A stretch of 64,000 bases of DNA from a virus. Lineage: Duplodnaviria > Heunggongvirae > Uroviricota > Caudoviricetes. Under the pieces are notes generated by a model. The model ran no database searches, was not told the origin of the DNA, and saw nothing but the letters and a program-made list of their open reading frames with translations. The DNA is taken from positions 1 through 64,000 of IMG/VR virus record IMGVR_UViG_3300048838_001248. One strand, given 5' to 3'. Both the position numbers and the translations under genes were made by a program. Within the stretch, counting starts at the first letter, position 1. Each line of letters starts with the position of its first letter. This document shows, one piece after another, positions 4,527 through 42,947 of the stretch.

Positions 4527-5077
4527 AAATACCGAGAACCGAAATACAATTCTATCGTTACGAAGCACGTGAATATAGTGCTGGGACTGATGAATTTGGA
4601 GACCCAATACATAAAATTGTACCAGACCCAAAGGTAAGTCTTATGACTTTTAATCTACATAAAGAAACTCCAAAAGGATATTGGATTGGGCATGGGTTTC
4701 ATTGTCCTGATAATTTACGTGCTAATGCAAGATGGGTTAGTAAAACTGGTAGAAAACGATACGCCTATCCAACCAAGGAAGAGGCACTTGAGAGTTTTAT
4801 TAAACGCAAGGAAAAACAGGTAAAGATATTGAAACATCAAACATGGTCAGCAGAAATTGCGTTAAAATTAGCACAAGAACTAAAAATAAAACACGAAAAA
4901 TTTAAACCCAGAGATAAAGTAAATCTCCCATTTAATGAAGAAGGTGAGGTTGTTGAATATCTTGATTTATTGTGGGGAAGTCGCTATAATGTCAGAATCA
5001 CAAAATCCAACGGATTTAATGATGTTGGAGAAGTTGTGGATTTTTTTGAAAAAGATTTGGAATTAATAAACAATTGA
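4523..5077 (+). CDS. hypothetical protein
   Basis: 184-aa ORF, ATGA overlap. Confidence 0.5.
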   Translation: MKIPRTEIQFYRYEAREYSAGTDEFGDPIHKIVPDPKVSLMTFNLHKETPKGYWIGHGFHCPDNLRANARWVSKTGRKRYAYPTKEEALESFIKRKEKQVKILKHQTWSAEIALKLAQELKIKHEKFKPRDKVNLPFNEEGEVVEYLDLLWGSRYNVRITKSNGFNDVGEVVDFFEKDLELINN

Positions 5078-5085
5078 CTACATTT
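5055..5085 (+). promoter_or_regulatory. host-type Bacteroidota sigma-A promoter
   Basis: TTTG-N19-TACATTTG before the small membrane protein / SPFH operon. Confidence 0.5.
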
Positions 5086-5113
5086 GCACGAATATTAATT
5101 TAAATTAAATAAT

Positions 5114-6929: not shown

Positions 6930-6960
6930 TTTGTATTTAAATTTAAAAATATTATATTTG
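6930..6960 (+). promoter_or_regulatory. host-type Bacteroidota sigma-A promoter
   Basis: TTTG-N19-TATATTTG, 18 nt before ATG 6979. Confidence 0.5.
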
Positions 6961-10041: not shown

Positions 10042-10072
10042 TTTGTATATTAAATAAATTGAATTATATTTG
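10042..10072 (+). promoter_or_regulatory. host-type Bacteroidota sigma-A promoter
   Basis: TTTG-N19-TATATTTG before gene 10111. Confidence 0.5.
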
Positions 10073-11408: not shown

Positions 11409-11439
11409 TTGTAACATTTTCAATTTATTTCTGTATAAT
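11409..11439 (+). promoter_or_regulatory. phage ECF-type promoter
   Basis: TTGTAAC-N16-TGTATAAT. Confidence 0.55.
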
Positions 11440-11467: not shown

Positions 11468-11770
11468 ATGAGCAGGGAAGAAATTAATGAATTATTATTG
11501 GTAGAATTACCGGAAGCCAAGCAAAGTAATGTGCTGAGTGATGCGCTCAAATCTTTATTTTATGTGATATGTAGAAGAACTGTTGAATCCGATAGATATA
11601 AATTTCTTAACGATGACCGGAAATATGATTGTGTTTTAAATGCTTATGAAGCATGCACAAAACATGCAATCAAATTCAATCCAGAAAAATCCAATGATGC
11701 GTATAGTTACGTCAATATAATAATAAGAAGTTCAATTGCTGGAACAATAATTAAATTGAAAAAATCATGA
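11468..11770 (+). CDS. hypothetical protein
   Basis: Promoter at 11409-11439. Confidence 0.5.
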   Translation: MSREEINELLLVELPEAKQSNVLSDALKSLFYVICRRTVESDRYKFLNDDRKYDCVLNAYEACTKHAIKFNPEKSNDAYSYVNIIIRSSIAGTIIKLKKS

Positions 11771-20232: not shown

Positions 20233-20513
20233 ATTGGAAAGAGACAAAGCTAAAGGCAGGTGAAACCTTTATCACATCAGAAAAGGGTAATTCAATGACA
20301 CCCATCATCAAATCAGGACAAGACCATAAACTTGCTCCGGTTAAGATTGAAGAAGTAAAAGTTGGTGATATCGTTTTTTGTAAGGTAAGAGGGAAGTATT
20401 ATACACATTTTGTTAAAGCTAAGAGTGACAAAGGTTGTTTAATTGGTAATAATAAGGGTGGAATTAATGGTTGGAGTAAACAAATCTTTGGAAAAGTTGT
20501 TGAAGTATTGTAA
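20229..20513 (+). CDS. S24-family (LexA/UmuD-like) peptidase domain protein
   Basis: GNSMTPII..GDIVFCKV..GKVV pattern parallels GDSM..GDIV..K of LexA/UmuD C-domain; no HTH. Confidence 0.5.
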   Translation: MNWKETKLKAGETFITSEKGNSMTPIIKSGQDHKLAPVKIEEVKVGDIVFCKVRGKYYTHFVKAKSDKGCLIGNNKGGINGWSKQIFGKVVEVL

Positions 20514-20536
20514 TATCTAATTTTTTATTATATTTG
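20508..20536 (+). promoter_or_regulatory. host-type promoter (weaker -33)
   Basis: ATTG-N18-TATATTTG before gene 20541. Confidence 0.4.
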
Positions 20537-28446: not shown

Positions 28447-28892
28447 GCTATGTAAATTTAAGTAAATCAGTTACTTAGTCTTATACTGGCATTGCTTCAT
28501 GACATCAGTAATTCCTTATATGTACTATAACTATGGTTTATGTGTACCTAAAACTTATGTTTTTACAGTTTTTTGTACCTTTTTATAATCCCTGTGGGAT
28601 ACTGATTATCAGGTAGTTATACGCTGGCAAATAAATGTTGGTGGTTTATGGTGGGACTTTTTGGGGTATAGTGGGAGAAATTCATATGAAAACAGCCGAA
28701 ATGTAGTCCCGGCACACGCAACTTCCCAGCAGATTATTTTTTATAGAAAATCGATTTTATAATTTTTTATAATTTTTAAATAAAGTTCATATCCCCGGAC
28801 TCAGGATGTGCATAAACTGTATTATTCATATAAATTTACATATGTTTTTGACAAACGGAAATAAAACTATTGCTTTCCGGTTAAGAACTATT

Positions 28893-28900
28893 TATATTTG
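28893..28900 (+). promoter_or_regulatory. host-type -7 box
   Basis: TATATTTG 25 nt before ATG 28925; -33 element unclear. Confidence 0.35.
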
Positions 28901-29625: not shown

Positions 29626-29934
29626 TTACATGAACAAACTATAAATCAACCAGCCAACAAATAGTGTAAACCAAGGTGCGATTATGCTAACAATTGCTCC
29701 TGTGGTATTATCTTTATATTCTTTCTTGATAACCTGTCCGTCTCCAATACGAAAGAAACCAATGAATAAGAATAATCCCACTGCATGCCAGAAATTTATT
29801 TCAGGTAGACCGGGGAAGACTGGTATTACGAACCAGTACCAGAACTTGTACAATGCGTAACCCCATGAGAGGCTACCGTACATTAATAAAACAAAAGCTA
29901 ATGCTAAGAAGCCTAATAGTGCAAGTAATTCCAT
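29626..29934 (-). CDS. membrane protein
   Basis: Hydrophobic 102-aa ORF. Confidence 0.5.
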   Translation of the reverse strand: MELLALLGFLALAFVLLMYGSLSWGYALYKFWYWFVIPVFPGLPEINFWHAVGLFLFIGFFRIGDGQVIKKEYKDNTTGAIVSIIAPWFTLFVGWLIYSLFM

Positions 29935-29944
29935 AATTTAAATT

Positions 29945-30199
29945 TTAAAATAATTGAATATAATTTTTGTATTCCGGGTATTTGTTTTTAAGATAATCGA
30001 AAGCCAGTTTATCACCTGACTTTTTGGACAATGCGGTTATCTGGAATTCATCCAGCCATTTGATTCTATCACCACAGATAGTCATACCATTTTCATCGAA
30101 TTGCACCATGCCTTGTGGACAATATGTTTTGGTGTACAATCTCTGAATGAACATTGGTAAATTGAGTAGCCAGTGTTTTTGTTTGAGTTCAACTTTCAT
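29945..30199 (-). CDS. hypothetical protein
   Basis: 84-aa ORF. Confidence 0.45.
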   Translation of the reverse strand: MKVELKQKHWLLNLPMFIQRLYTKTYCPQGMVQFDENGMTICGDRIKWLDEFQITALSKKSGDKLAFDYLKNKYPEYKNYIQLF

Positions 30200-30612
30200 A
30201 TCTTCCAGTTTGGTGGGTATTTCTTATGTCTTTTAATATATTCCGCATCCAGTTCTTCGAGCATTCTGAAGCATCTGTTCTTCAGCAAGCTATAAGGATG
30301 GTGGATTTTATCGTAGTGGTCGAGCCAGAGTTTCTTTCCGAGTTCCGGTGTATGGATATATTGTTTGGTGTACAATCTCTCAAGACCTTCTTGCATATCG
30401 AATGCTGACTGTGATAGTCTACCAACGTAGTCCAGAATTCTGATAATTTCTTCATAGGTTTCAGTATGTGTTTTATCATCTATTCTTTTTTGGGTTTGAA
30501 TTATTTTTAATCTGTTTTTGAGTTTTTCAATAATCTCTTCTGCCTTACTTAGTTCGTTTTTATGGTCTGGGGTTATGAGATTATTATCGATTAGGATTTG
30601 TTCACTTAACAT
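30196..30612 (-). CDS. hypothetical protein
   Basis: 138-aa ORF. Confidence 0.5.
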   Translation of the reverse strand: MLSEQILIDNNLITPDHKNELSKAEEIIEKLKNRLKIIQTQKRIDDKTHTETYEEIIRILDYVGRLSQSAFDMQEGLERLYTKQYIHTPELGKKLWLDHYDKIHHPYSLLKNRCFRMLEELDAEYIKRHKKYPPNWKI

Positions 30613-30634
30613 GTGTTAAAAAGTTACATAGCTG

Positions 30635-31015
30635 TTATTTTTTTCTGATGGTTACGCCATCAACGTTACCCTTGACATTACCACAGTTAATTGTAGTACC
30701 GTCAACATCACCTCCTACATCTCCATTGATATTAATGCTTGTGCCATCAACGTCTCCACGTACATTGCCGTTAATGGTAGCACTTGTACAATCAAGATTT
30801 GCGAGGTCGCCTTCGAATGTGATGCGTACATTGCCATTAAGATTTTCTTTAATAACATCACCATCAACAATTACCTTACCGTTTCTCACCACGATATTTC
30901 TACCACGGACTTCGAAGGTCTCATTGTCAATACTGATTTTATTTAAAGCCTTCTTCATAGATTTGAATGCATCATCTAAGGTTTTTTCCATGTCATCGAA
31001 GATACTCATAGGCAT
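30635..31015 (-). CDS. Gly/Asn/Val/Asp repeat protein (beta-helix, bactofilin-like?)
   Basis: Repeats GNVRGDVDGTSININGDVGGDVDGTTINCGNVKGNVDG. Confidence 0.45.
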   Translation of the reverse strand: MPMSIFDDMEKTLDDAFKSMKKALNKISIDNETFEVRGRNIVVRNGKVIVDGDVIKENLNGNVRITFEGDLANLDCTSATINGNVRGDVDGTSININGDVGGDVDGTTINCGNVKGNVDGVTIRKK

Positions 31016-31017
31016 TT

Positions 31018-31266
31018 TTAATTAAAGTTAATACTATTTTCTAATATATATTGTTTCACAATTTTATCTGGGGTTTCGGAATTCGGGATGCCCGTGAAAT
31101 TAGTTTCGATTCCAAAACCCTGACTCCAATCAAACACCAGACCTTCACCTTCTGGGGTCTCGGATACCATTTCTTTATCGAATAGCTGCAGGAATACTCC
31201 TAACATATGGTCGTCACCACCTACAAGAGTTAATCTGTCGTCCTGATATAATGTCTTTCTACTCAC
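31018..31266 (-). CDS. hypothetical protein
   Basis: 82-aa ORF. Confidence 0.45.
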   Translation of the reverse strand: MSRKTLYQDDRLTLVGGDDHMLGVFLQLFDKEMVSETPEGEGLVFDWSQGFGIETNFTGIPNSETPDKIVKQYILENSINFN

Positions 31267-31291
31267 GGGGTTATAGTTTTTAATTAAAGTC

Positions 31292-31750
31292 TTACTTCAG
31301 GTCGTAGACATAAACATCTACAGATGCGCAGTCTTCGATAATTTGTTCGATGGTATTCCAGTCTCCACCTGCAAGACCTGCACCGATTCTCGGCATATGA
31401 AGACTTGCTCCAGTACGATAGGCGACATTATTTACTGCAGCAAGACAAGCACGCAGAGCACCGTATCTTATTGGTGGTTCTCCATTGGGAGATATTCCAA
31501 CACCACGCTGCGCAATCATGTTTGCCACTGAGATATTATCTTCTACCGGGACGAGCATTACTTTACCAAGCATCAATTCTTCTTTAGACATTTCTCTATA
31601 TGCTTCTTCAGGTTCGCTCCAACGTTTGGACAATGCTAATACGAAGCCAGCACCCCATGCACCGATATCGTTACATATGTGACAGATAATCTTGTTGCCG
31701 TCTCCCTGTGGGCGAGTAGCATCGCCTTTTAGATATTTGATTTTTTTCAT
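31292..31750 (-). CDS. macro-domain (ADP-ribose binding/processing) protein
   Basis: KGDATRP..IICHICNDIGAWGAGFV and HMPRIGAGLAGGDW resemble macro-domain glycine-rich loops. Confidence 0.5.
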   Translation of the reverse strand: MKKIKYLKGDATRPQGDGNKIICHICNDIGAWGAGFVLALSKRWSEPEEAYREMSKEELMLGKVMLVPVEDNISVANMIAQRGVGISPNGEPPIRYGALRACLAAVNNVAYRTGASLHMPRIGAGLAGGDWNTIEQIIEDCASVDVYVYDLK

Positions 31751-31756
31751 TTTTAA

Positions 31757-32122
31757 TTAAAATTTATATGTTTTTCTGAGTTCTTTTTTCACATCCAGTC
31801 CTTGGTTGTACATTGAGATGTAATTAAACAACTCAGTAGTACAGTCGTCCCAAGAGCGGTCGCATAATTGTTTCTCATGATACAGTATTTCATTTATGCG
31901 TACATTCTCACCTGTCTTCTCAGATTTCAGTGAGTAAACATAGTTATTACTTCTGAATTTTAAAAATTTCTTTTTCAACTTTGGTAATATTTTTTTATTA
32001 TCTACTACCACAGCGATTTGAAATCTCTTATCAAAGTGTTGAACGACAGTGGGATTATCCACCTCAATGATGGACAATCCCAAGCCATTCGGCAAATCTG
32101 TGTGTGAAGTGATTTTCATCAT
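31757..32122 (-). CDS. hypothetical protein
   Basis: 121-aa ORF. Confidence 0.5.
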   Translation of the reverse strand: MMKITSHTDLPNGLGLSIIEVDNPTVVQHFDKRFQIAVVVDNKKILPKLKKKFLKFRSNNYVYSLKSEKTGENVRINEILYHEKQLCDRSWDDCTTELFNYISMYNQGLDVKKELRKTYKF

Positions 32123-32553
32123 GCCATTTGCTTTTTAAGTTGTGCTTCCCGGTTTCTGGCAAACATTTCTTCCAGTGCATCTTCGCCTTTGATTTTCTGA
32201 GACACGTAATTGATATCAATATTTGCTTCGTATCCAATCCTGTCATCCTGCCATGCGTCACAGAACTTAACCCATGTAAGTCTCACAGAGGTCTTATTGA
32301 CCTTGGTAACCACATATACTGCATAGCTATCTGCATGCGGGAATCTGACTGTGCGTCCCAAGAGTGTGTTATGTGCACGGGCGATGGTTTTGAGTTCATC
32401 CATCAGGGTTTCCTGACGTTCCATGATGTTGTCGAAGTTATTCGGGTCATCACTTACTTTACCAAAAGAACCATAGGTGGGTTCGATTTCATTCATGGCT
32501 TCCAACTCTTTGAGTTTTACCACGATGTCTGAGAACAGATTTTTGTTTTTCAT
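32119..32553 (-). CDS. hypothetical protein
   Basis: 144-aa ORF. Confidence 0.5.
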   Translation of the reverse strand: MKNKNLFSDIVVKLKELEAMNEIEPTYGSFGKVSDDPNNFDNIMERQETLMDELKTIARAHNTLLGRTVRFPHADSYAVYVVTKVNKTSVRLTWVKFCDAWQDDRIGYEANIDINYVSQKIKGEDALEEMFARNREAQLKKQMA

Positions 32554-32582
32554 TTGTTTGTTTTTATTGGTTATTACTATTT

Positions 32583-33089
32583 TTAATTAAAATCAAATGT
32601 CTTTGGGTCGAATTGTTCTCTGATTTTATTGATTCTATTAATACCTTGCTTACGTAATTTTTCATCCCCGGAGTGATAGCAAGCCATGATTAGCATTCCG
32701 TACACATAATCATCCAAGGACTTCTCTGGATACCACTCACATTTGATATATTCATTGATTGCCAGTTGTAATTCATTGTTCTGCAGGTGCTGTAATGTAT
32801 TCAATGCGAATTTGCGTGCACGGTAAACCTGAATGTTTCTTTTATATGTGAGTAGTTCATTTTGACACCAACCTGCAACAATCAGGAGTATTCCACTTGT
32901 CATTAATGAACCTAATAATCCTGTTAGAATAGGTATGATAATTGATAGTTTAGTCCAATCACCATCTGAATAAATTCTAACAATAATTGTGGTTATCAGA
33001 AATACAGCGAAGAATATCAGGCAAGCATATCCAATTTGCATCAGAAGTTTTGTTTGCCTTTTCAGTTTGAATTTTTTCTTGGCTTCCAT
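32583..33089 (-). CDS. membrane protein
   Basis: Three to four TM helices. Confidence 0.5.
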   Translation of the reverse strand: MEAKKKFKLKRQTKLLMQIGYACLIFFAVFLITTIIVRIYSDGDWTKLSIIIPILTGLLGSLMTSGILLIVAGWCQNELLTYKRNIQVYRARKFALNTLQHLQNNELQLAINEYIKCEWYPEKSLDDYVYGMLIMACYHSGDEKLRKQGINRINKIREQFDPKTFDFN

Positions 33090-33112
33090 AGTCGTAGTGT
33101 TTTTAATTAAAA

Positions 33113-33511
33113 TTACTTTACTTCATATCCACATTGGGGACACCAACGTTTTCCTTCTTCAACATATGTTGGCATGTCTCTACCGTCACAATTACAGATA
33201 GGGTCTTGCTTATCATACTTAATTTCCAATTGCTTGTGAGGATGTTGGTCTTCAACATATTTCTCAATGGTTTGAATGTATTCGATTTGCTTCTCGAATT
33301 CCAAGGACTTAATGTATTCTTTGCTTCTATTTGAACCTATGAGTGATTTGGCTTTGAAGACATCTACAGAATTTGTGCTGATTGGTGCTTCGGGATGTAA
33401 GCAAGCAAGTGTGTATAATCTGGTGATGACAATTTGCTTTAGCTTTTCTGTCTCGTTTAAGAGGTCATCCATTTTCCTCTTATAGTCCTGTGCATTTGGG
33501 TTTTTTCTCAT
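33113..33511 (-). CDS. coiled-coil / C-terminal zinc-ribbon protein
   Basis: C-terminal CNCDG...CPQCG; the -10 element sits 4 nt from the ATG, so the transcript may be leaderless. Confidence 0.5.
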   Translation of the reverse strand: MRKNPNAQDYKRKMDDLLNETEKLKQIVITRLYTLACLHPEAPISTNSVDVFKAKSLIGSNRSKEYIKSLEFEKQIEYIQTIEKYVEDQHPHKQLEIKYDKQDPICNCDGRDMPTYVEEGKRWCPQCGYEVK

Positions 33512-33515
33512 GATT

Positions 33516-33546
33516 ATTATACGTAAATCATTTCAAAATGTTACAG
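33516..33546 (-). promoter_or_regulatory. phage ECF-type promoter (minus)
   Basis: Plus strand reads ATTATACG-N16-GTTACAG; 4 nt from start codon. Confidence 0.5.
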
Positions 33547-33608
33547 TTTTACTTGAAATAAAAATCCCTGTACATTGAAGTACAGGGATTTAAGAGAGTA
33601 CACAATAA

Positions 33609-34784
33609 TTATTCGATATCCACCAGTCTTGTCTCAATCATTTTCAGGAGTTCGGACATTGGTCTGCTTTCAGCTTCCGCTTTCATTGCAGTTTCAATTG
33701 GCAGTTGATTTGCCTTAACTTTGGCAATCAGTTCTTCAAGTTCTGCTTCCTCGTATTCCTGATAATCGCTTTCGAAGTACGCTTGTTCAATGATGTCAAT
33801 TTTACCATTGGTATAGGTTGCAACTGCGAAGGGGAAGTATTCACTCACACGCATTTTGCTGTGGTCATAATCCGGCACTGCAACAACATTGGCAGGGTTG
33901 ACGTAGCACACCAGTACTGCATTTCCACTGGAAGCAAACCTTTCAACATAAGTTGTTGCTCCAACATGCAGACCGTATGAACAATCCCTTGCAGGGTCGC
34001 TGTCACATGCATGGCGAGGCATCACTACTGGCTGACCGAGTACAATACTCATGGTCTTAGTGTGCTTGTCAGTGTAAATGGTTTCGGGTTCGTTTTTGTC
34101 ATCATTAAAGATTGACATAAACATGTCTCCGAGTTTGCCAAGGATTTCAACACCCTTTTCTTTTTCATCCCAACTTTCGGCTGTTTCGATTTTGGTAATG
34201 AAATAGTTTGTGGTATCTTCTTCCCTGTACACCACGTACTTGTTAGGACTGCATTTCCAGTCTTTCTTAACGTGAAGGTACTGGTTGCTCACGAATGCCG
34301 GAAGGTCGTTATCGGCTTTCTTTTTGTAATCAACAGCCTTGTACACAACCATATAACCGTTGTCAGTCAGAACAAAGTCATGGGTTGTAATGAAGTCAAA
34401 CAGACTTTCACGTACCCTGACATCCGGGTTAATCATCAGGAGTTTCCAGAAGTTGATAATGGCTTCCAGAGGATAGTTGTTCTCATGATATTCTTTCACG
34501 ACTTCAACCAGTGTTGCGGGAACGGGAGTATTGAAACCTGCAAGGTAAACCAATCCAGTTTCAGGGTCGGCTTCCAGACCTGCTTCCATTGCAATACGTG
34601 TGCGCTCATTGAGAAGCAAACGGACTGCTTTAAAATTATCCTCATTGGGATTTTCTTTTGCTTTCAGAACGGCACGAAACAGTTCATCAGCTTCTTTGGG
34701 TGAACCGCAGTTTTTCTTGTGAAGTTTACCTTCAATCGAAATGTTGACTACGTTACCTGTTTTGATTGCATTAATGTTTTTCAT
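33609..34784 (-). CDS. rIIB: rIIB-like protein
   Basis: CSYGLHVGATTYVERFASSGNAVLVCYVNPANVVAVP parallels T4 rIIB C..GLHV...F.SS..V..V.P..VV.P; directly downstream of rIIA. Confidence 0.7.
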   Translation of the reverse strand: MKNINAIKTGNVVNISIEGKLHKKNCGSPKEADELFRAVLKAKENPNEDNFKAVRLLLNERTRIAMEAGLEADPETGLVYLAGFNTPVPATLVEVVKEYHENNYPLEAIINFWKLLMINPDVRVRESLFDFITTHDFVLTDNGYMVVYKAVDYKKKADNDLPAFVSNQYLHVKKDWKCSPNKYVVYREEDTTNYFITKIETAESWDEKEKGVEILGKLGDMFMSIFNDDKNEPETIYTDKHTKTMSIVLGQPVVMPRHACDSDPARDCSYGLHVGATTYVERFASSGNAVLVCYVNPANVVAVPDYDHSKMRVSEYFPFAVATYTNGKIDIIEQAYFESDYQEYEEAELEELIAKVKANQLPIETAMKAEAESRPMSELLKMIETRLVDIE

Positions 34785-34823
34785 TTCAGTGTTTTTTAAG
34801 TTATTATTGTGTTTCTCTATGCA

Positions 34824-34854
34824 ATTATACGTAAATTATTTCAAATGGTTACAA
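34824..34854 (-). promoter_or_regulatory. phage promoter for rIIB
   Basis: 26-nt promoter-plus-leader block identical to the rIIA one. Confidence 0.6.
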
Positions 34855-34879
34855 AAATAAGTGAAAAAATGATGGTGCA

Positions 34880-37174
34880 TTATAGCACCATCACTTTATT
34901 TAAAATGTCATACAGGGTATCATTTGCATTCTCCATGCTCCAAGGCAGATTAAGATAAGACAAGATTTTCTGATTATTGACCTGTAAATCCTGTATTTCT
35001 TTCATTAAACGCAATATGCGTTTCTGTTCAGGGGTCTGCTTAATATTGGTCAGGTCAAAATGTCTCGAAAGTTCTGATTTCATGTAACCAACATCCTTTT
35101 TACTTGAAGGTAGATTTTCAATGTAGGTTTTAATTTCGTCAACCTTTGCCTGATATTTGGGAGCATTGAGTTTTGAATAGTTAACATCTTTATAGAAGTT
35201 AGTAATACTATCCCACTGCTCGGACATTCCATGTGTCTGAAAATAGGACATTATGAAGTCAGTTTTTCTGTAAAGCATTTTGTTGTAAAACTGGCTGACA
35301 TGATATGCTTTCTTGCAGTACTCAAAGTACTTTACATTACCCTGTGCAACCATGATAAACATAATGCTATTCTTTTCCTTGCCGGAATAACCATTATTGA
35401 ATTTACCATTGTAATCAACATATCTCACAACTGCTTTGTTATCAAAGAGTTCACGAAACATATCACTTGCTCTTCTCAATTCATTTTCATTTTCCTGTGT
35501 GCCATAGAAGATAGGCATGTTATAATCGAATAACATCGACAAACTAATCCTTTCCTTACTATGACCACCTATGAATTTTACAGGTATGGTTAACTTCCTT
35601 AGTTCAGGAGACATTGATTTCTTGTTCTTCCTTGAAGCAATAAAATCTTCCGGTACTTCAAGTGTATCATAATCCTGTGCGTTTTCACGTACAATGCTAA
35701 AGTATTCTTCCTGCATGTCAATCAAAGACTGAACAAAAGCAATTGGTTTGCCGTTATCGTCTGTGGTTTTATCCATGTGTACATTAAACAGTTCGGCAAT
35801 TTCACTGCGCATCCAATTATTGGCAACATTGCGAAGTGTAACAATATGATACAGGTCATATTTATAACCTAAGTAAGCCTGTTTGATAACCTTACGGTTA
35901 AATTCATCGTTGACGTACAATAGATTTGAATTCTTTTTAAGTTCTTCGTAACCACCTTCGAATTCGTACTTTGATGATGAATACCTTGACCTTGCAGGTT
36001 TCTTGCCATAAGACTTGACTTCGAAGAAAAACTTGAACAACTGTCTGTCATTCGGCATTTTCATAAAGCTGTACCGGAAATTCGACAGGTCAACATCTGA
36101 TTGCTTAATGATGTTGCTAACGGTTAAGGACATTCCGTTTTTGAATTCCAATACACCAAAGTTGTGTTTCAGATTAAAGTAATCCTTTAAGTCAACTATG
36201 TTACTGTACTGTTTTACAAGCAGTTCTTTCACTTCTTCCTTTGCAGCTTCCAGTTTCTTTTTGAGAACCTTAATGGTTTTCTCGCTGTAATCCAGTTGTT
36301 CTCTGGAAGCAACAACACCTATGTCACCCACTTCGAGTTTCAAAGCAATAGGTAAACTGTAATCACTTGCTGATAATCCAAGCACACTATAATCAATAGG
36401 GTAAGCAACCCTACCAAGGCATACATGCATGTGATGTGAATACTCATTGCCCCTGTAAAGGAAGTTCTTTCCCCGGACAATCTGATACTCATTTGAGAGT
36501 GTTTGACCATTGTAATAGTCATCTTCAAAACCTTCAAAGACAACATTTTCAAAGTAGTACAATTGCTTTACCATTTCTTTGGAGAAGCTATTCAGGTCTT
36601 TTTCCAGTACTGGTATACGGATTTCAGTACCATTGCGTTCTGTTGTTGCTTCACTATGTAACAAGCTGATTTCAGGTGCTTCCTGACCTTCATAGATACA
36701 GTAATAATAACGTGTACCATTGAAGTTGGTAATAACATAAAAGCTGTTATCGTATTCACCTTCACCATGACCAGTACTGCGTTTGTAAGCCAATGGAGTT
36801 TTGCCACCAATACCGAAACCACCAATCTGTGTGTTGTCGCACCTTTTTGTGCTTTCGAAGTAAACACCATAGATGTTTTCAACCCTGTCAGGAGACATAC
36901 CAACACCATAATCAATGAATGATATATATATGGTATCGGTTTGTGGGTCTTTGGATTTCTTAATGACAACCGGAGAATTCACCTGTGCTTCGACATGTGA
37001 ATCAAAACAGTTACTGGTAATCTCACGGACAACCGTACCTATAGGATTACTGTAAATGTTTTTGGTAAAAAGCTGAAATACCATTGAGGTAGCATTCTCT
37101 GATAAGCGCATTTTCTTTGCACCTGTACTGGCTTCTGTTGCCTGTGTCGAGAGTTGTTTCAAGTTGATTTCCAT
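34880..37174 (-). CDS. rIIA: rIIA-like protein (GHKL ATPase)
   Basis: N box EITSNCFDS, G1 IDYGVGMS, G2 GGFGIGGK match T4 rIIA (ELITNMIDA / RDFGPGMS / GGFGLGSK); 764 aa. Confidence 0.8.
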   Translation of the reverse strand: MEINLKQLSTQATEASTGAKKMRLSENATSMVFQLFTKNIYSNPIGTVVREITSNCFDSHVEAQVNSPVVIKKSKDPQTDTIYISFIDYGVGMSPDRVENIYGVYFESTKRCDNTQIGGFGIGGKTPLAYKRSTGHGEGEYDNSFYVITNFNGTRYYYCIYEGQEAPEISLLHSEATTERNGTEIRIPVLEKDLNSFSKEMVKQLYYFENVVFEGFEDDYYNGQTLSNEYQIVRGKNFLYRGNEYSHHMHVCLGRVAYPIDYSVLGLSASDYSLPIALKLEVGDIGVVASREQLDYSEKTIKVLKKKLEAAKEEVKELLVKQYSNIVDLKDYFNLKHNFGVLEFKNGMSLTVSNIIKQSDVDLSNFRYSFMKMPNDRQLFKFFFEVKSYGKKPARSRYSSSKYEFEGGYEELKKNSNLLYVNDEFNRKVIKQAYLGYKYDLYHIVTLRNVANNWMRSEIAELFNVHMDKTTDDNGKPIAFVQSLIDMQEEYFSIVRENAQDYDTLEVPEDFIASRKNKKSMSPELRKLTIPVKFIGGHSKERISLSMLFDYNMPIFYGTQENENELRRASDMFRELFDNKAVVRYVDYNGKFNNGYSGKEKNSIMFIMVAQGNVKYFEYCKKAYHVSQFYNKMLYRKTDFIMSYFQTHGMSEQWDSITNFYKDVNYSKLNAPKYQAKVDEIKTYIENLPSSKKDVGYMKSELSRHFDLTNIKQTPEQKRILRLMKEIQDLQVNNQKILSYLNLPWSMENANDTLYDILNKVMVL

Positions 37175-37219
37175 AATGTTTGGTTTTTATTGGTTAATAA
37201 TATTGTGTTTCTCTATGCA

Positions 37220-37250
37220 ATTATACGGAATATATTTGAAATGGTTACAA
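37220..37250 (-). promoter_or_regulatory. phage promoter for rIIA
   Basis: ATTGTGTTTCTCTATGCAATTATACG block shared with rIIB. Confidence 0.6.
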
Positions 37251-37335
37251 AATTATTCAATTATTTTTACTTTGCTTTTAAATAAAATTGTTGAGTTTTC
37301 AATCATGCTATTGTTTTTAAATAAAATCATATTGA

Positions 37336-37366
37336 GTTATACGTTTGAGTTGAAGTAAGGTTACAA
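37336..37366 (-). promoter_or_regulatory. phage-type promoter with no gene (about 70-nt transcript?)
   Basis: GTTATACG-N16-GTTACAA. Confidence 0.4.
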
Positions 37367-37375
37367 TCAGGGTCT

Positions 37376-37480
37376 TATTTAGACTGATTCTAACATCAGG
37401 ATATAAGGTAGGTTGGAGTCCACTTGGTTTCAGGTGGTGTGCCTGTTACAACTATTGGCTTATGTGGGTTATACATTCAT
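37376..37480 (-). ncRNA. candidate small RNA, family copy 1
   Basis: Core TTTAGA-N-TCTAAA hairpin plus TCAGGATATAAGGTAGGTTGGAGTC, directly downstream of its own promoter 37487-37517; no ORF. Confidence 0.4.
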
Positions 37481-37486
37481 ATATTT

Positions 37487-37517
37487 ATTATACGGATTCA
37501 GATTAAAATGGTTACAA
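37487..37517 (-). promoter_or_regulatory. phage promoter of sRNA copy 1
   Basis: ATTATACG-N16-GTTACAA. Confidence 0.55.
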
Positions 37518-37560
37518 ACATTTGCCACTAAATTCGTTTTATTGTCAATTGTTTGAAAAG

Positions 37561-37598
37561 AAAAAATCCCCTGCCGTTCTGGTTAAACGGAACAGGGG
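37561..37598 (-). terminator. intrinsic terminator (repeat copy A)
   Basis: CCCCTGCCGTTCTGGTTAAACGGAACAGGGG with T6 on minus. Confidence 0.55.
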
Positions 37599-37632
37599 AC
37601 TAACCAATAAAAACTACAAACAACAAATATTT

Positions 37633-38373
37633 TTATTTAAAACTGAACCTTTTGGGTATTTGGAATTCTACACTTAAACCGTGGATGACATCACCAACCC
37701 TGAAGGTATAGTTTGTATATTCTGGCATGCGGAGCACTGACCGTCTGGGAATAAATTTTGTTGGATACATCAGGAAGTTAAGCACGTGTACCATTACCGG
37801 GATTCTGGGTTTCTCTTCTTTGTCTCCCAGCAGCACAACTACCCAGAGTTTACGCTTGAAGTTCTTCACTGCGTAAGGTGAACCATGCTTATACCTGTAG
37901 AAGTCAAAGAAGTGTGTAACATCATTTACATGTTCTGGGGAACGGTATTGTCTTTCATATATGTTTGCACGCTCGTATTGTTTTGTGTCCCTTAAAAACT
38001 TTATCACGTCATCGACTTTAACCAGATGAGACCTGCCCATGCCCCGGAAGTTGTCTTCTGATACTTCTCCCGTCTCATAATATCTTTTTACTGCCTCTTC
38101 AGTGCCGTAGCAATTTACATAATTCAGTGTAAGCTGTTTTTCAAATTCACTTCTGCTGGGGTCTTCCTTTATCTTGTTTATGCTGCTACCATAACCTATA
38201 GAGAATTCGTAGTTCCTGAAATCTAAATTCTGATTCTTTTCCTTTATAGGATAGCTGCAATCTTCGTTTCTCATCCTAACCAGTTTGGCATTTTGCCCTG
38301 AAGCCAGCGCACGCCTTAAATCCAGCAAGCCAGCAAATATGTTTGTTTTCGGAGATGACCAGTTTGTGTTCAT
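37633..38373 (-). CDS. hypothetical protein
   Basis: 246-aa ORF with own promoter and a downstream terminator. Confidence 0.55.
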   Translation of the reverse strand: MNTNWSSPKTNIFAGLLDLRRALASGQNAKLVRMRNEDCSYPIKEKNQNLDFRNYEFSIGYGSSINKIKEDPSRSEFEKQLTLNYVNCYGTEEAVKRYYETGEVSEDNFRGMGRSHLVKVDDVIKFLRDTKQYERANIYERQYRSPEHVNDVTHFFDFYRYKHGSPYAVKNFKRKLWVVVLLGDKEEKPRIPVMVHVLNFLMYPTKFIPRRSVLRMPEYTNYTFRVGDVIHGLSVEFQIPKRFSFK

Positions 38374-38396
38374 GGTTTTATTTATTGGTTATAGTT

Positions 38397-38427
38397 CTTA
38401 TACGTAAACCCGGTTAAAATGTTACAA
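38397..38427 (-). promoter_or_regulatory. phage promoter (minus)
   Basis: CTTATACG-N16-GTTACAA. Confidence 0.55.
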
Positions 38428-38464
38428 AATTACCTATACTTTGTTTACTCAGTAAAGTAAGTAA

Positions 38465-38715
38465 AAGAAGAAACCCCCTTAACCTCGGCTTGGTATGCTC
38501 TTGTGAGCGGACGTGCGGGGTCTCAGGGGGTTTCTCTACACGGTCTGTTAGGCGTAACAGTCGCCACCGTGCAACCATTGCCGTCAGAGTGTCTTAACAG
38601 TTTCTCCTGCTCTCCTACATACGGTCAGTGCCTTTCAGCCATTTCTGCCAACTTCAGTAGCCTATTAACGGTTGGTTTTCACTTCTTAAATATCTTGGTT
38701 AAAGAACGTTTTCTA
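38465..38715 (-). ncRNA. candidate ncRNA (GC-rich, promoter- and terminator-bounded)
   Basis: Promoter 38720-38750; 10-bp GAAACCCCCT/AGGGGGTTTC stem at 38469-38534 then T-rich tail on minus; local GC far above surroundings; no minus-strand ORF. Confidence 0.35.
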
Positions 38716-38719
38716 TATT

Positions 38720-38750
38720 CTTATACGTAAGTCATTCTGAAATGTTACAA
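38720..38750 (-). promoter_or_regulatory. phage promoter of ncRNA candidate
   Basis: CTTATACG-N16-GTTACAA. Confidence 0.5.
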
Positions 38751-39118
38751 ACAGCTTTCACTTTTTTTCTTGGTCTGTAAATAAATTTGCCGTCATTATT
38801 GTTTTTAATTAAAACGAATCCTTGTTTCCGGTAATAGCCGTACAATCGTTTTATGTCTGCACCATATAAATTAGTGGCGTACAATCTGACTTCAATCTGA
38901 TGGTCATCCGCAAAGTTTATTATGTCGGACAATACAGCAGAACCATATCCCAGATTTCTTTGTGACTTTTTAATTTGAATCAATGCCAGATAAATATATG
39001 GTGGTTCTCCGTTATCGTAACAATATTCTAATTTAAGATTTTGGATTTTGTTGATGTACTTTTGTTTTTTTAAATAAAAAACAAACTCATCGAGTTGTGT
39101 CTGGGTAACGTTTTTCAT
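38732..39118 (-). CDS. GNAT-family N-acetyltransferase
   Basis: Motif A RNLGYGSAVLSDII; start moved to MKNVTQ directly after the upstream terminator. Confidence 0.55.
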   Translation of the reverse strand: MKNVTQTQLDEFVFYLKKQKYINKIQNLKLEYCYDNGEPPYIYLALIQIKKSQRNLGYGSAVLSDIINFADDHQIEVRLYATNLYGADIKRLYGYYRKQGFVLIKNNNDGKFIYRPRKKVKAVCNISE

Positions 39119-39123
39119 AAAAA

Positions 39124-39152
39124 ACCCTTTGACATAAATACTTGTCAAAGGG
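39124..39152 (-). terminator. intrinsic terminator
   Basis: CCCTTTGACA..TGTCAAAGGG then T6 on minus; the ATG of the GNAT gene follows directly. Confidence 0.55.
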
Positions 39153-39191
39153 TTTTGCCTCGCACCAATTGTGGACATTGCCACAATATTT

Positions 39192-39818
39192 TTATGCTCT
39201 GGGGTCGCCTTCGAACATCATGGTTGGTTCTTCAACATCGCCTTCCCAGAGGGTCAACAATCTCCATTGACCTTCGATATCGCTGTTCAGCATTTCATTT
39301 GCCTGAGACAAATTGTACACGCAAAAACTCGCATCCATGTCCGGGTGAATCTCACCATCCTGTTCAGTGCCGTCTTCTCCGACAACCTGAAAGCCTATTA
39401 CCTTTGCACATGTTTTTAGTTCTGCTGTTTGAATAACAGAAGAAAGTTGACAGTCATCACACCAACCGAGTTCATCACCTTCAACCTCATCAACAAATTT
39501 CTGACCATCATTTGGTTTCGTCCATGATTTAACCTGAACATGGTCTCCACCACAATGCATACAAAGGTATACACATTTGGTTTTATCAGGGTCGGGATTC
39601 TCCCGTTCTTCTTCCAGTTCGAAATCAAAAACATGTATTTCAGGTACATCCATTTCGTCAACGGCATAATCCTGAATGGCATCAATGAGAGCCAGAATTC
39701 CTTCCAGTGCCTGTCCCTGTTCAACAGTAGTAACAGTATTCATCACCTCAATCAATGCTGATTTCTGTGTTCTGAGGTCTGTCCAGTCGATTCTTTTAAT
39801 AAATTCGGGTGTTTCCAT
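39192..39818 (-). CDS. acidic zinc-finger protein
   Basis: CMHCGG...CDDC; strongly acidic. Confidence 0.5.
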   Translation of the reverse strand: METPEFIKRIDWTDLRTQKSALIEVMNTVTTVEQGQALEGILALIDAIQDYAVDEMDVPEIHVFDFELEEERENPDPDKTKCVYLCMHCGGDHVQVKSWTKPNDGQKFVDEVEGDELGWCDDCQLSSVIQTAELKTCAKVIGFQVVGEDGTEQDGEIHPDMDASFCVYNLSQANEMLNSDIEGQWRLLTLWEGDVEEPTMMFEGDPRA

Positions 39819-39844
39819 TTGTGTGTGGTTTATTGGTTATAATG

Positions 39845-39875
39845 ATTATACGTAAGCTGATTGAATTTGTTACAA
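39845..39875 (-). promoter_or_regulatory. phage promoter (minus)
   Basis: ATTATACG-N16-GTTACAA. Confidence 0.55.
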
Positions 39876-40076
39876 TTCGTCATCATCAAAATCATACTCG
39901 GTAACCTCACCCTCGAAAGTAAATTCGTTTTCTTCATCGTCATCATCATTAGCAAGTCTGCTGAGTTCTGCAAGACTAAGACTTTCAAGAAATGCGAGTT
40001 CCTGTGGGTTATCATTATCACCATTTTTATTTAAAATGGAGTCGATAAGCTGCTGTCTTTGAGATTTTTTTGCCAT
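39870..40076 (-). CDS. small highly acidic protein
   Basis: 68 aa, C-terminal DDDDEENEFTFEGEVTEYDFDDDEL. Confidence 0.45.
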   Translation of the reverse strand: MAKKSQRQQLIDSILNKNGDNDNPQELAFLESLSLAELSRLANDDDDEENEFTFEGEVTEYDFDDDEL

Positions 40077-40112
40077 TTGATTTAAAGTTAAGGTTTATAC
40101 TATTTTATATTT

Positions 40113-40149
40113 ATTATACGAAAAAACCCCGGAAATGTTACATCCGGGG
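40113..40149 (-). promoter_or_regulatory. fused terminator-promoter cassette
   Basis: Hairpin CCCCGGAAATGTTACATCCGGGG carries the -35; the A6 spacer is the terminator T-tract on minus; -10 ATTATACG. Confidence 0.6.
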
Positions 40150-40157
40150 TCTTACTT

Positions 40158-40328
40158 TTATATCTCTCCAAAAGTTTGTTCAATTTCTTCCTGTAATGCA
40201 ACTGCATCTTCAAGAGTGTCACGATATGCCACACCTATTGGACATTCTTCATCGGTGTATTCTTCATCGTCAGTACCAAAGTTATCAATACGTTCGATTT
40301 CAATCCAGATTTTATATTTTGTTGCCAT
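40158..40328 (-). CDS. small acidic protein (56 aa)
   Basis: MATKYKIWIEIERIDNFGTDDEEYTDEE...; not in track. Confidence 0.35.
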   Translation of the reverse strand: MATKYKIWIEIERIDNFGTDDEEYTDEECPIGVAYRDTLEDAVALQEEIEQTFGEI

Positions 40329-40348
40329 AGTGTTTTTAATTAAAAGGG

Positions 40349-40789: not shown

Positions 40790-40816
40790 TTGTTTGTTTT
40801 TATTGGTTTGTACATT

Positions 40817-40858
40817 ATTATACGGAAAAATGCGGTGAATGTTACAAACAAACACCGC
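40817..40858 (-). promoter_or_regulatory. fused terminator-promoter cassette
   Basis: Hairpin GCGGTG-AATGTTACAAACAAA-CACCGC contains the -35. Confidence 0.55.
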
Positions 40859-40878
40859 ATTTTATGCATTGATTAATT

Positions 40879-41394: not shown

Positions 41395-41418
41395 ATTTGT
41401 GATTTTTATTGGTTTATA

Positions 41419-41610: not shown

Positions 41611-41636
41611 TGTGTTGGTGTTTATTTGTTATAGTT

Positions 41637-41670
41637 ATTATACGAAAAAAACCCTGTAAATGTTACAGGG
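41637..41670 (-). promoter_or_regulatory. fused terminator-promoter cassette
   Basis: Hairpin CCCTGTAAATGTTACAGGG contains the -35; A7 spacer. Confidence 0.55.
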
Positions 41671-41682
41671 TTCTTAGTTTAT

Positions 41683-42513: not shown

Positions 42514-42541
42514 ATCTATGGGGTTTTTATTGGTTATGGTT

Positions 42542-42946: not shown

Positions 42947-42947
42947 T

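What the first reader, a model, noticed from the sequence alone, without database searches (positions are those of the whole stretch)
5055..5085. Minority of host-type Bacteroidota promoters (TTTG-N19-TAnnTTTG), including one on the sigma factor gene: a two-stage transcription cascade and a host clue
Clean TTTG-N19-TA(c/t)ATTTG elements precede five units. These are the SPFH operon (5055-5085), gene 6979, gene 10111, gene 20541 (N18) and gene 28925 (only the -7 box). A TACATTTG -7 box, overlapping a degenerate phage-type motif, also sits 4-10 nt upstream of the sigma factor start (53038-53045). This is the distinctive Bacteroidota sigma-A promoter architecture. Together with lipoprotein lipoboxes, the absence of SD sequences and the low GC content, it points to a Bacteroidota host. 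Host RNAP would transcribe the sigma gene and a few others first, and the phage sigma would then switch on the roughly 44 ECF-type promoters.
Basis: partly seen in the sequence, partly recalled or inferred. Interest (0 to 1): 0.6.

Follow-up and report, generated by a model that had tools for sequence, protein, structure and literature searches.

The report
Host-type promoters in a Bacteroidota jumbo phage
About ten genes of this uncultured giant phage, including its own sigma-factor gene, carry the two-part promoter signature of Bacteroidota bacteria, which points to the host and fits an ordinary host-first, phage-sigma-next gene relay, with no expression data yet.

Summary
TTTG-N19-TAYATTTG sits at 5056-5086, 6930-6960 and 10042-10072 (+) and at 53038-53068 (-). 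Weaker versions lie at 20507-20536 and 28869-28900.

Window-wide counts are at chance. Placement is not: 9 of 15 TAYATTTG lie within 65 nt upstream of a same-strand start codon, against 0.67 expected. TTG sits 18-20 nt upstream in 8 of 10 sites.

A Bacteroidota host is supported only indirectly. Shine-Dalgarno motifs are absent (3 of 107 genes). Adenine peaks at -3, -6, -12 and -13. Twelve of 14 cellular relatives of a phage MORN lipoprotein are Bacteroidota.

The cascade is plausible but needs amending:
- The sigma gene also carries an overlapping SigW-like promoter, TGAAAC-N16-CGTTAAAT. It is kept in about 10 of 11 related lineages; the host-type -7 box is kept in only 4. The host-first step is therefore not general.
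- Gene 11468-11770 is a T4 gp55-like late sigma sitting behind a phage-type promoter. This implies three tiers, not two.
- The sigma gene probably starts at 53000, giving a leader of about 33 nt.
- The 'SPFH' label has no Pfam match, only weak prohibitin matches.

Verdict: a new member or variant of a known kind, of moderate interest.

The parts
5056..5086 (+). Host-type promoter TTTG-N19-TACATTTG. The box ends 27 nt before ATG 5114, a 55-aa membrane ORF, followed by 5376-6515 and two small ORFs. The -33 lies inside the 3' end of gene 4523-5077.
6930..6960 (+). Host-type promoter TTTG-N19-TATATTTG, 18 nt before ATG 6979. It follows directly after an intrinsic-terminator-like hairpin at 6895-6924.
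10042..10072 (+). Host-type promoter TTTG-N19-TATATTTG, 38 nt before ATG 10111 (312-aa coiled-coil protein). The leader carries TGTTTAACTTAAAAC, which is identical to a stretch of the sigma leader.
20507..20536 (+). Weaker host-type promoter ATTG-N18-TATATTTG. The box ends 4 nt before ATG 20541, so the predicted mRNA is leaderless.
28869..28900 (+). Weaker host-type promoter ATTG-N20-TATATTTG, 24 nt before ATG 28925. It lies at the end of a 478-nt non-coding stretch.
53038..53068 (-). Host-type motif TTTG-N19-TACATTTG upstream of the sigma gene, 37 nt before ATG 53000. It overlaps the ECF-type promoter listed next.
53050..53079 (-). SigW-like ECF-type promoter TGAAAC-N16-CGTTAAAT of the sigma gene, with a T-tract after the -35. 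Probably autoregulatory. It is conserved in about 10 of 11 related lineages.
52470..53000 (-). Phage ECF sigma factor gene (176 aa). It is the first gene of the minus-strand block.
55098..55129 (-). Host-type promoter CTTG-N20-TATTTTTG, 25 nt before ATG 55072 (296-aa protein).
57133..57161 (-). Two TACATTTG boxes created by a 21-bp tandem duplication, 23 and 44 nt before ATG 57109 (MORN_2 lipoprotein). One copy is conserved in relative L009.
58936..58967 (-). Host-type promoter ATTG-N20-TACATTTG, 65 nt before ATG 58870. It heads the operon 57450-58870 and diverges from the phage-type promoter at 58986 (+).
29626..52400 (-). Gene block downstream of the sigma gene. It carries 32 phage-type promoters (TGTAAC-N16-CGTATAAT) and no host-type promoter. 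It includes rIIA (34880-37174) and rIIB (33609-34784).
11410..11439 (+). Phage-type promoter TGTAAC-N16-TGTATAAT in front of the gp55-like gene.
11468..11770 (+). T4 gp55-like minimal (region 2 only) late sigma factor, 100 aa.

Best explanation
The window is part of an uncultured T4-like jumbo phage that carries rIIA, rIIB and a gp55-like factor, and whose relatives lie on contigs of 88-357 kb. Its host is most likely a member of Bacteroidota. About ten transcription units carry the bipartite promoter of the Bacteroidota primary sigma factor: a -33 (T)TTG, a spacer of 18-20 nt, and a -7 TAYATTTG. Unmodified host RNA polymerase can read these from the moment of infection.

One of these units is the phage's own ECF sigma gene, which sits at the head of the minus-strand block. 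Once made, the phage sigma binds host core polymerase. It would then boost its own synthesis from the overlapping SigW-like promoter TGAAAC-N16-CGTTAAAT. It would also fire at least 44 near-identical TGTAAC-N16-CGTATAAT promoters. Those promoters drive rIIA, rIIB and many small genes, and also the gp55-like late sigma gene. That late sigma would in turn run late genes that lie outside the window.

What is shown: the motifs, their placement statistics, their conservation in relatives, the protein families and fold, and the Shine-Dalgarno-less translation-start context.

What is inferred: which sigma reads which promoter, the temporal order, and the host phylum.
For: **Placement**
- Nine TAYATTTG lie within 65 nt upstream of same-strand start codons, against 0.67 expected (0 of 500 shuffles).
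- TTG lies 18-20 nt upstream in 8 of 10 sites (P about 3e-6), and TTTG at exactly N19 in 4 of 10.
- TACATTTG and TATATTTG are the first- and fourth-ranked de novo 8-mers in upstream regions that lack the phage-type motif.
- All ten boxes fit TAHHTTTG. Box-to-ATG distances of 4-65 nt (median about 25) fit the transcription start 4-5 nt after the box and the mean 33-nt leader reported for F. johnsoniae (PMC6847099).
- E. coli-type sigma-70 promoters are not enriched (32 found against 28.9 expected).

**Host**
- Shine-Dalgarno motifs occur in 3 of 107 genes, against 6.7 at random.
- Adenine reaches 0.62-0.68 at -3, -4 and -6 and 0.65 at -12 and -13. These match the positive determinants A-3, A-6, A-12 and A-13 (PMC6847099).
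- Twelve of 14 cellular relatives of the MORN lipoprotein are Bacteroidota.
[quoted passage not shown] The hits also include 14 Pseudomonas and 2 Listeria phage records.

**Conservation**
- The sigma -7 box is kept in L009 (TAGTTTTG) and L020 (TATATTTG). TA and TTTG are invariant and only 'nn' varies.
- The MORN-gene box is kept in L009.
- Bipartite hits in related loci number 8 in sense against 1 in antisense.

**Sigma and its promoters**
- The sigma has Pfam regions 2 and 4_2. Its nearest solved structure and NCBIfam family are SigW.
- SigW promoters have the form tGAAACnTTTt ... CGTA (PMC5758882), the same form as the phage motif.
- The GTAAC-N16-CGTA motif is found together with this sigma family in 19 of the 20 loci first scanned.

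**Third tier**
- The gp55-like fold has TM 0.83 and rmsd 2.0 to chain 7d7c_F.
- It sits behind a phage-type promoter.
Against: - There are no transcription-start or time-course data.
- Host assignment is indirect: no CRISPR spacer match, no cultured close relative, and no megablast hit to any phage record.
- The host-type -7 box upstream of sigma is absent in 7 of 11 related lineages, which keep only the ECF-type promoter. The host-first step therefore cannot be the general way this clade starts its sigma.
- At the sigma site the -33 TTTG is also the T-tract of the ECF promoter. The whole intergenic region is 87% conserved among close relatives, so conservation of the box is not specific evidence.
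- L009 and L023 have G at an 'nn' position, which is nearly absent from F. johnsoniae promoters.
- Several host-type units encode membrane, lipoprotein or endonuclease-like genes. These could be autonomous morons rather than a temporal class.
Confidence: 0.62

Rival explanations
1. The TAYATTTG elements are real host-type promoters, but they are not the trigger of the cascade. They drive autonomous 'moron' or mobile genes such as lipoproteins, membrane proteins and homing-endonuclease-like genes. The sigma gene is started mainly through its conserved ECF-type promoter. That start could come from basal transcription plus positive autoregulation, from a host ECF sigma, or from sigma protein delivered with the virion.
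For: - The ECF-type promoter upstream of sigma is kept in about 10 of 11 lineages, against 4 of 11 for a -7 box.
- In relatives, host-type bipartite promoters precede genes with NUMOD or HNH domains (L017 926-2068, L019 4692-5189).
- In the window they precede a MORN lipoprotein whose cellular relatives are Bacteroidota.
- They also precede small membrane proteins.
Against: - In this phage and its two nearest relatives a well-placed -7 box with the right spacing to TTTG does sit upstream of sigma, with a predicted leader of about 33 nt.
- Some route independent of the phage sigma is logically needed to make the first sigma molecules.
- No virion proteome is available, and no host ECF regulon is known for this host.
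Confidence: 0.22
2. TAYATTTG is the late promoter read by the phage's gp55-like factor, by analogy with T4 TATAAATA. It would not be a host-sigma promoter at all.
For: - A gp55-like protein is encoded.
- TATATTTG shares its first four bases, TATA, with T4 TATAAATA (own knowledge of the T4 late promoter).
- T4-type TATAAATA itself is not enriched in the window (1 copy against 1.8 expected), so the late motif of this phage is unknown.
Against: - T4-type late promoters have no -35 element, yet here TTG sits 18-20 nt upstream in 8 of 10 sites (P about 3e-6).
- The composite matches the Bacteroidota consensus exactly (PMC6847099).
- It would create a circular dependency. The gp55-like gene sits behind an ECF-type promoter, while the ECF sigma gene would depend on gp55.
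- No structural or lysis genes follow these boxes.
Confidence: 0.08
3. The matches are chance products of AT-rich intergenic DNA and have no function.
For: Window-wide counts are at chance level: 5 against 2.7 expected, with 15 of 100 shuffles reaching 5, and 15 against 12.7.
Against: - Positional and orientation enrichment is strong: 9 against 0.67 expected, 0 of 500 shuffles, and only 1 copy in the wrong orientation.
- The -33 spacing shows a sharp peak.
- Boxes are conserved in relatives.
- The box comes out top in an unbiased motif scan.
Confidence: 0.03

Closest known systems
Bacteroidota primary-sigma (sigma-A Bfr) promoters: -33 TTTG and -7 TAnnTTTG, refined to TAHHTTTG in Flavobacterium johnsoniae (PMC6847099 and references therein)
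   Same: - The same two elements are present, with a spacing of about 19 nt.
- Neither 'nn' position is G.
- The boxes sit a few tens of nt upstream of start codons.
- The genes lack Shine-Dalgarno motifs and show adenine peaks at -3, -6, -12 and -13.
   Different: - These elements are on a phage genome, and only about 10 units in 64 kb carry them.
- The box is narrower here (TAYATTTG).
- Recognition by the host holoenzyme and the transcription start sites are untested.
- In F. johnsoniae the -33 element is weak genome-wide, whereas here TTG is present in 8 of 10 sites.
Phage T4 temporal programme: early promoters read by host sigma-70, middle promoters by MotA/AsiA, late promoters by gp55/gp33/gp45
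   Same: - The gene content is T4-like: rIIA, rIIB and a gp55-like minimal sigma with matching fold.
- A set of host-type promoters is present.
- rIIA and rIIB sit behind the second-tier promoters.
- The late sigma gene sits behind a second-tier promoter.
   Different: - The middle tier would be run by a full ECF sigma with its own -35/-10 promoter class, not by sigma appropriation.
- No MotA or AsiA was seen in the window.
- gp33 and gp45 were not looked for.
- Timing is untested.
Bacillus phage SPO1 sigma cascade (gp28, then gp33/34). Stated from my own knowledge.
   Same: Host polymerase reads the early genes, including a phage sigma gene. The phage sigma then redirects host core polymerase to a distinct promoter class.
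   Different: The sigma family is different (ECF, SigW-like) and so is the host phylum. Here the sigma gene also has an apparent autoregulatory promoter of its own class.
Bacillus subtilis SigW-type ECF promoters and autoregulation (PMC5758882)
   Same: - The -35 (T)G(A/T)AAC is followed by a T-tract, the spacer is 16 nt, and the -10 is CGTA.
- A promoter of the same class lies upstream of the sigma's own gene.
- SigW is the nearest solved structure and the nearest NCBIfam family.
   Different: - The phage sigma scores far below the SigW equivalog cut-offs (88 bits against 209).
- The usual -35 is GTAAC, and the -10 extends to CGTATAAT.
- No anti-sigma gene was identified.
- There are at least 44 promoters on one phage fragment.
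Group 2 jumbo phages, which have no RNA polymerase of their own but encode sigma factors and include Bacteroidetes phages (PMC7824862)
   Same: This is a jumbo-size clade with T4-like markers. It encodes both a minimal sigma and a fuller sigma, and is predicted to recruit host core polymerase.
   Different: That survey reports gene content only. Here the two promoter classes, and the wiring between the sigma genes, can be read directly from the sequence.

Membership tests
Bacteroidota primary-sigma promoter (-33/-7 type) | -7 element TAnnTTTG, with no G at either 'nn' position (TAHHTTTG) | tested here: met
   Ten boxes are TACATTTG, TATATTTG or TATTTTTG, and 'nn' is never G. Nine TAYATTTG boxes are in promoter position against 0.67 expected.
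Bacteroidota primary-sigma promoter (-33/-7 type) | -33 element TTTG about 19 nt upstream of the -7 element | tested here: met
   TTTG lies at exactly N19 in 4 of 10 sites. TTG lies at N18-20 in 8 of 10 (P about 3e-6). At the sigma site this TTTG is also part of the ECF promoter's T-tract.
Bacteroidota primary-sigma promoter (-33/-7 type) | Transcription starts 4-5 nt downstream of the -7 element, with a leader typically of tens of nt | not testable with these tools
   Only distances to start codons can be read. They are 4-65 nt, and 37 nt for sigma, which is compatible with PMC6847099.
Bacteroidota primary-sigma promoter (-33/-7 type) | The host is a member of Bacteroidota and its holoenzyme initiates at these sites | tested here: inconclusive
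   Indirect support only: no Shine-Dalgarno motifs, adenine at -3, -6, -12 and -13, and 12 of 14 cellular MORN relatives in Bacteroidota. The sigma's distant phage-database relatives include crAss-like phages and two metagenomic phage records above 634 kb, but also Pseudomonas and Listeria phages. There is no spacer match and no cultured relative.
ECF (group IV) sigma-70 factor | Only regions 2 and 4 are present, about 170-200 aa | tested here: met
   Sigma70_r2 at 1.2e-12 and Sigma70_r4_2 at 5.6e-10. The protein is 176 aa. Best solved-structure match is SigW at 6.5e-18.
ECF (group IV) sigma-70 factor | Cognate promoters with an AAC-type -35 and a CGT-type -10 about 16-17 nt apart | tested here: met
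   43 strict sites, plus 11410 and the sigma gene's own site. The pairing of this sigma with this motif is inferred from co-occurrence and family resemblance, not shown.
ECF (group IV) sigma-70 factor | Autoregulation: a promoter of the same class upstream of its own gene | tested here: met
   TGAAAC-N16-CGTTAAAT at 53050-53079. Equivalent sites are present in about 10 of 11 lineages. This is evidence at motif level only.
ECF (group IV) sigma-70 factor | A cognate anti-sigma factor encoded next to it | not tested
   The downstream gene 52149-52367 and the conserved divergent gene 53297-53866 have no family hits. They were not examined further.
T4-type late transcription (gp55 family) | A minimal sigma consisting of a region-2-like helical domain | tested here: met
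   PHROG 234 at E 1.2e-6. AlphaFold pLDDT 93.8. Foldseek top hit is 7d7c_F (gp55) with TM 0.83 and rmsd 2.0. There was no sequence-level Pfam or PDB hit.
T4-type late transcription (gp55 family) | gp33 and sliding-clamp partners, and a simple -10-only late promoter in front of structural genes | not tested
   There are no structural genes in the window or in the 10 kb beyond its right end. TATAAATA is not enriched here.
   No Pfam hit at E up to 1 and no NCBIfam hit. PHROG 11908 has unknown function. Only weak prohibitin matches appear in the coiled-coil part, E 0.04-0.3.

The most novel reading that the evidence does not exclude
A clade of T4-like jumbo phages of Bacteroidota has replaced T4's MotA/AsiA 'sigma appropriation' with a self-amplifying ECF sigma as the middle-gene switch. 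This would give a three-sigma relay wired in cis: host sigma-A, then phage ECF sigma, then a gp55-like late sigma. The sigma gene would carry a dual, overlapping host-type and ECF-type promoter.

In most members of the clade only the ECF-type promoter remains. In those phages the relay might be ignited by a host ECF (envelope-stress) sigma or by sigma protein carried in the virion, rather than by the housekeeping sigma.
Probability: 0.3. Interest if true: 0.6.

Novelty: new member of a known kind. Interest (0 to 1): 0.4.

Why it matters
- The motif gives a sequence-only way to assign uncultured jumbo phages to Bacteroidota hosts. The promoter type and the Shine-Dalgarno-less start context agree with each other.
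- It lays out a fully readable regulatory wiring diagram for a phage group that has no cultured member. There are two promoter classes and two phage sigma genes, one placed behind each class.
- The phage ECF sigma and its roughly 45 near-identical promoters could also be useful as an orthogonal expression pair for Bacteroidota, where strong orthogonal parts are scarce.
- Scientifically it is an expected architecture: host-type early promoters plus a phage sigma. The value lies in the detail and in testability, not in surprise.

Tried and rejected
- **Close phage relatives by DNA.** Megablast of 24 kb against 50,697 phage records gave no match, so no cultured relative or host could be read off.
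- **Protein searches for host clues.** rIIA, sigma and RNA ligase were searched by tblastn against the phage records. rIIA and RNA ligase are generic jumbo-phage genes found across many host phyla, so they say nothing about the host. The sigma hits are distant.
- **Genome-collection scan with rIIA.** It found nothing.
- **NCBI cluster names for sigma homologues.** They carried no organism names.
- **Fetching the sigma gene of relative L002, which uses a GCAAT-type -35.** The DUF932 neighbour found no locus, and the sigma alignment found only three loci. The test of co-variation between sigma sequence and the -35 motif was dropped.
- **Extending the window to reach structural genes.** The right flank holds nucleotide-metabolism genes only. 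The left-flank protein is not on record. The question of whether TAYATTTG precedes late genes could therefore not be tested.
- **'GAAAC' as a -35 variant unique to the sigma gene.** This was considered and rejected. In other lineages GAAAC also occurs at the divergent neighbour gene.
- **L002's TATATTTG hits.** They are part of its phage-type -10 (ACGTATATTTG), not host-type boxes.
- **TACGAC enrichment in upstream segments.** It did not hold up window-wide.
- **E. coli-type promoters.** They are not enriched.
- **Rfam.** It found only two tRNAs.
Full report
**What the window is**

GC content is 32-38%. Genes run on the + strand to about 29.6 kb and on the - strand from 29.6 to 53.0 kb. Orientation is mixed beyond that.

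The 764-aa protein at 34880-37174 (-) is rIIA-like. Its neighbour at 33609-34784 is rIIB-like. Relatives of rIIA lie on IMG/VR contigs of 88-357 kb. No phage record matches at the DNA level.

Most proteins have no known function. No structural or replication genes are present in the window or in the 10 kb to its right. The window is therefore an accessory and regulatory region of an uncultured T4-like jumbo phage.

**The observation**

- The first site is 5056-5086, not 5055-5085.
- The 20541 site has ATTG at N18.
- The 28925 site does have a TTG, at N20.

Four further boxes were missed: 55098, 57133, 57154 and 58936, all on the - strand.

Counted over the whole window, the motif is not above chance. 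The full pattern occurs 5 times against 2.7 expected. TAYATTTG occurs 15 times against 12.7 expected.

The signal lies in placement:
- Nine of the 15 TAYATTTG sit 4-65 nt upstream of a same-strand start codon in intergenic DNA. Shuffles of those same segments give 0.67, and 0 of 500 reach 9. Only one copy lies in the other orientation.
- A TTG lies 18-20 nt upstream in 8 of 10 sites (P about 3e-6). TTTG lies at exactly N19 in 4.
- In upstream regions that lack the phage-type promoter, TACATTTG and TATATTTG are the first- and fourth-ranked 8-mers in an unbiased scan.
- An intrinsic-terminator-like hairpin (6895-6924) immediately precedes the 6930 promoter.

**The phage-type promoters and the sigma factor**

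TGTAAC-N16/17-CGTATAAT occurs 43 times under a strict pattern. Thirty-two of these copies lie on the - strand between 33.5 and 52.4 kb. One more lies at 11410-11439.

The gene at 52470-53000 (-) has sigma-70 regions 2 and 4_2 only. Its nearest solved structure and nearest NCBIfam family are B. subtilis SigW. SigW promoters have the form tGAAACnTTTt ... CGTA (PMC5758882), which is the architecture of the phage motif.

The motif was found in 19 of the 20 loci first scanned. The exception is L002, which uses TGCAATATT ... ACGTATTAT instead. That this sigma reads these promoters is a strong inference. It is not shown.

**Host phylum**

Only 3 of 107 genes have a Shine-Dalgarno-like motif, fewer than the 6.7 expected at random. 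G is depleted upstream of start codons. Adenine peaks at -3, -4, -6, -12 and -13. These are the positions shown to stimulate translation in F. johnsoniae, a phylum that lacks Shine-Dalgarno use (PMC6847099).

E. coli-type promoters are not enriched.

The MORN_2 lipoprotein at 56774-57109 is itself behind a host-type box. It has 14 detectable cellular relatives, and 12 of them are Bacteroidota.

The sigma's only relatives in the phage database are distant. crAss-like phages are the largest named group among them. [quoted passage not shown] The hits also include 14 Pseudomonas and 2 Listeria phage records.

Bipartite host-type motifs also occur in more distant relatives: 8 in sense against 1 in antisense over 513 upstream regions.

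All of this is indirect. I put a Bacteroidota host at about 85%.

**The sigma gene's upstream region**

The probable start codon is ATG 53000. It matches the JGI gene call P0001. The upstream ATG at 53024 is out of frame in L009. The -7 box then gives a leader of about 33 nt, equal to the F. johnsoniae mean.

In the two closest relatives (L009 and L020, 61-65% sigma identity) the TA and TTTG of the box are invariant and only 'nn' varies. The GTAAC inside the spacer is not kept.

Two caveats apply. The whole region is 87% conserved among these relatives. L009 also has G at an 'nn' position.

More important, the same stretch contains a well-formed SigW-like promoter, TGAAAC-N16-CGTTAAAT (53050-53079). 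Equivalent sites are present in about 10 of 11 lineages. A -7 box is present in only four: the window, L009, L020 and, separately, L023. The -33 TTTG at this site is also the T-tract that follows the ECF -35.

The sigma gene therefore has a clade-wide promoter that is probably autoregulatory. In this phage and its nearest kin it also has a host-type promoter laid over it.

**A third tier**

Gene 11468-11770 matches the PHROG 'late sigma' family. It folds with pLDDT 94 into four helices. Its best structural match is T4 gp55 in the late open complex, with TM 0.83 and rmsd 2.0. Sequence-level Pfam and PDB searches miss it.

It sits behind a phage-type promoter. The wiring therefore reads: host sigma, then ECF sigma, then gp55-like sigma.

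This also raises a rival reading, that TAYATTTG is the gp55-type late promoter. The -33 spacing signal argues against it, since T4 late promoters need no -35. So does the exact match to the host consensus. So does the circular dependency the rival would create.

**What the host-type units encode**

They encode a small membrane protein plus a 379-aa protein with only weak prohibitin similarity. The 'SPFH' label is thus unsupported by family searches. They also encode a coiled-coil protein, several small ORFs, the sigma factor, a MORN lipoprotein and a 296-aa protein with no family.

In relatives, such promoters precede genes carrying NUMOD or HNH domains. Some of these promoters may therefore belong to autonomous moron or mobile genes rather than to a coordinated 'early' class.

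**Verdict**

Supported:
- The host-type promoters are very likely real.
- A Bacteroidota host is likely.
- A sigma relay is the best reading.

Needing amendment or still untested:
- The relay probably has three tiers.
- The sigma gene has a second, better conserved promoter.
- The temporal order is untested.

This is a new member, arguably a new variant, of the classic phage sigma cascade. It is of moderate interest, mainly because the wiring is so legible and testable.

Noticed in passing
window 11468-11770 (+), promoter 11410-11439: A 100-aa protein with the fold of T4 gp55, the late sigma (Foldseek TM 0.83 to 7d7c_F). It sits behind a phage-type ECF promoter, which implies a third transcription tier.
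   Followed up: yes
window 53050-53079 (-): A SigW-like promoter TGAAAC-N16-CGTTAAAT overlaps the host-type motif upstream of the sigma gene. It is conserved in about 10 of 11 related lineages and is the only intergenic GAAAC-type site in the window.
   Followed up: yes
window, - strand, -35 elements at about 40117, 41641, 43901, 46805 and 50368: Compact terminator-promoter fusions. A G+C-rich hairpin carries the -35 TGTAAC in its loop, and its T-tail forms the spacer before CGTATAAT (for example CCCCGGA-TGTAACATT-TCCGGGG-TTTTTT-CGTATAAT). The same design is seen in relative L002.
   Followed up: no
window 11063-11400 (+): A non-coding stretch of about 400 nt. A terminator-like hairpin comes first, then about 260 nt bracketed by a perfect 16-nt inverted repeat (CGCTTAGTGATAGGTT ... 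AACCTATCACTAAGCG). This may be a structured RNA or a mobile-element scar. Rfam found nothing there.
   Followed up: no
window 10088-10102 (+) and 53009-53023 (-): An identical 15-nt TGTTTAACTTAAAAC lies in the predicted leaders of gene 10111 and of the sigma gene. A related 'CACTTAAAACC' element precedes the sigma ATG in nearly all relatives. It may be a shared translational or regulatory leader element.
   Followed up: partly
window about 28596-28620 and about 53165-53190: A shared palindrome-containing motif, CTGATTATCAG-N-AGTTAT, occurs in the 478-nt non-coding region before 28925 and in the divergent sigma intergenic region. Similar sequences occur at the same place in L016, L019 and L020. 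It may be an operator.
   Followed up: no
window 53297-53866 (+): A 189-aa protein with no family hit lies divergently next to the sigma gene in all ten sigma loci where the upstream flank was read (174-190 aa in nine of them; a 92-aa ORF was called in L009). It sits behind an ECF-type promoter and is a candidate partner or regulator of the sigma.
   Followed up: no
L002 (IMGVR_UViG_3300042991_000632), whole locus: The closest rIIA relative (61% identity) has no GTAAC-type promoters. It uses TGCAATATT-N15-ACGTATTAT instead, which suggests co-evolution of the sigma and its -35 element within the clade.
   Followed up: partly
window 57133-57175 (-): A 21-bp tandem duplication (AATAATTGTTACATTTG[T/C]ATTAA) doubles the -7 box upstream of the MORN lipoprotein gene. 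Relative L009 has a single copy.
   Followed up: yes
window 62115-62210 and 62793-62865 (+): Two tRNA genes. One is 96 nt long, and ARAGORN could not assign an anticodon to the other. ORFs called across this region are probably spurious.
   Followed up: no
window 31292-31750 (-): A macrodomain protein with weak similarity to the DarG antitoxin (ADP-ribosyl glycohydrolase) and to a PHROG annotated as 'phosphatase'. It may counter a DarT-type host defence.
   Followed up: no
window 37224-37516 (-): Three tandem phage-type promoters (at about 37224, 37340 and 37491) lie in the 458-nt region upstream of rIIA.
   Followed up: no
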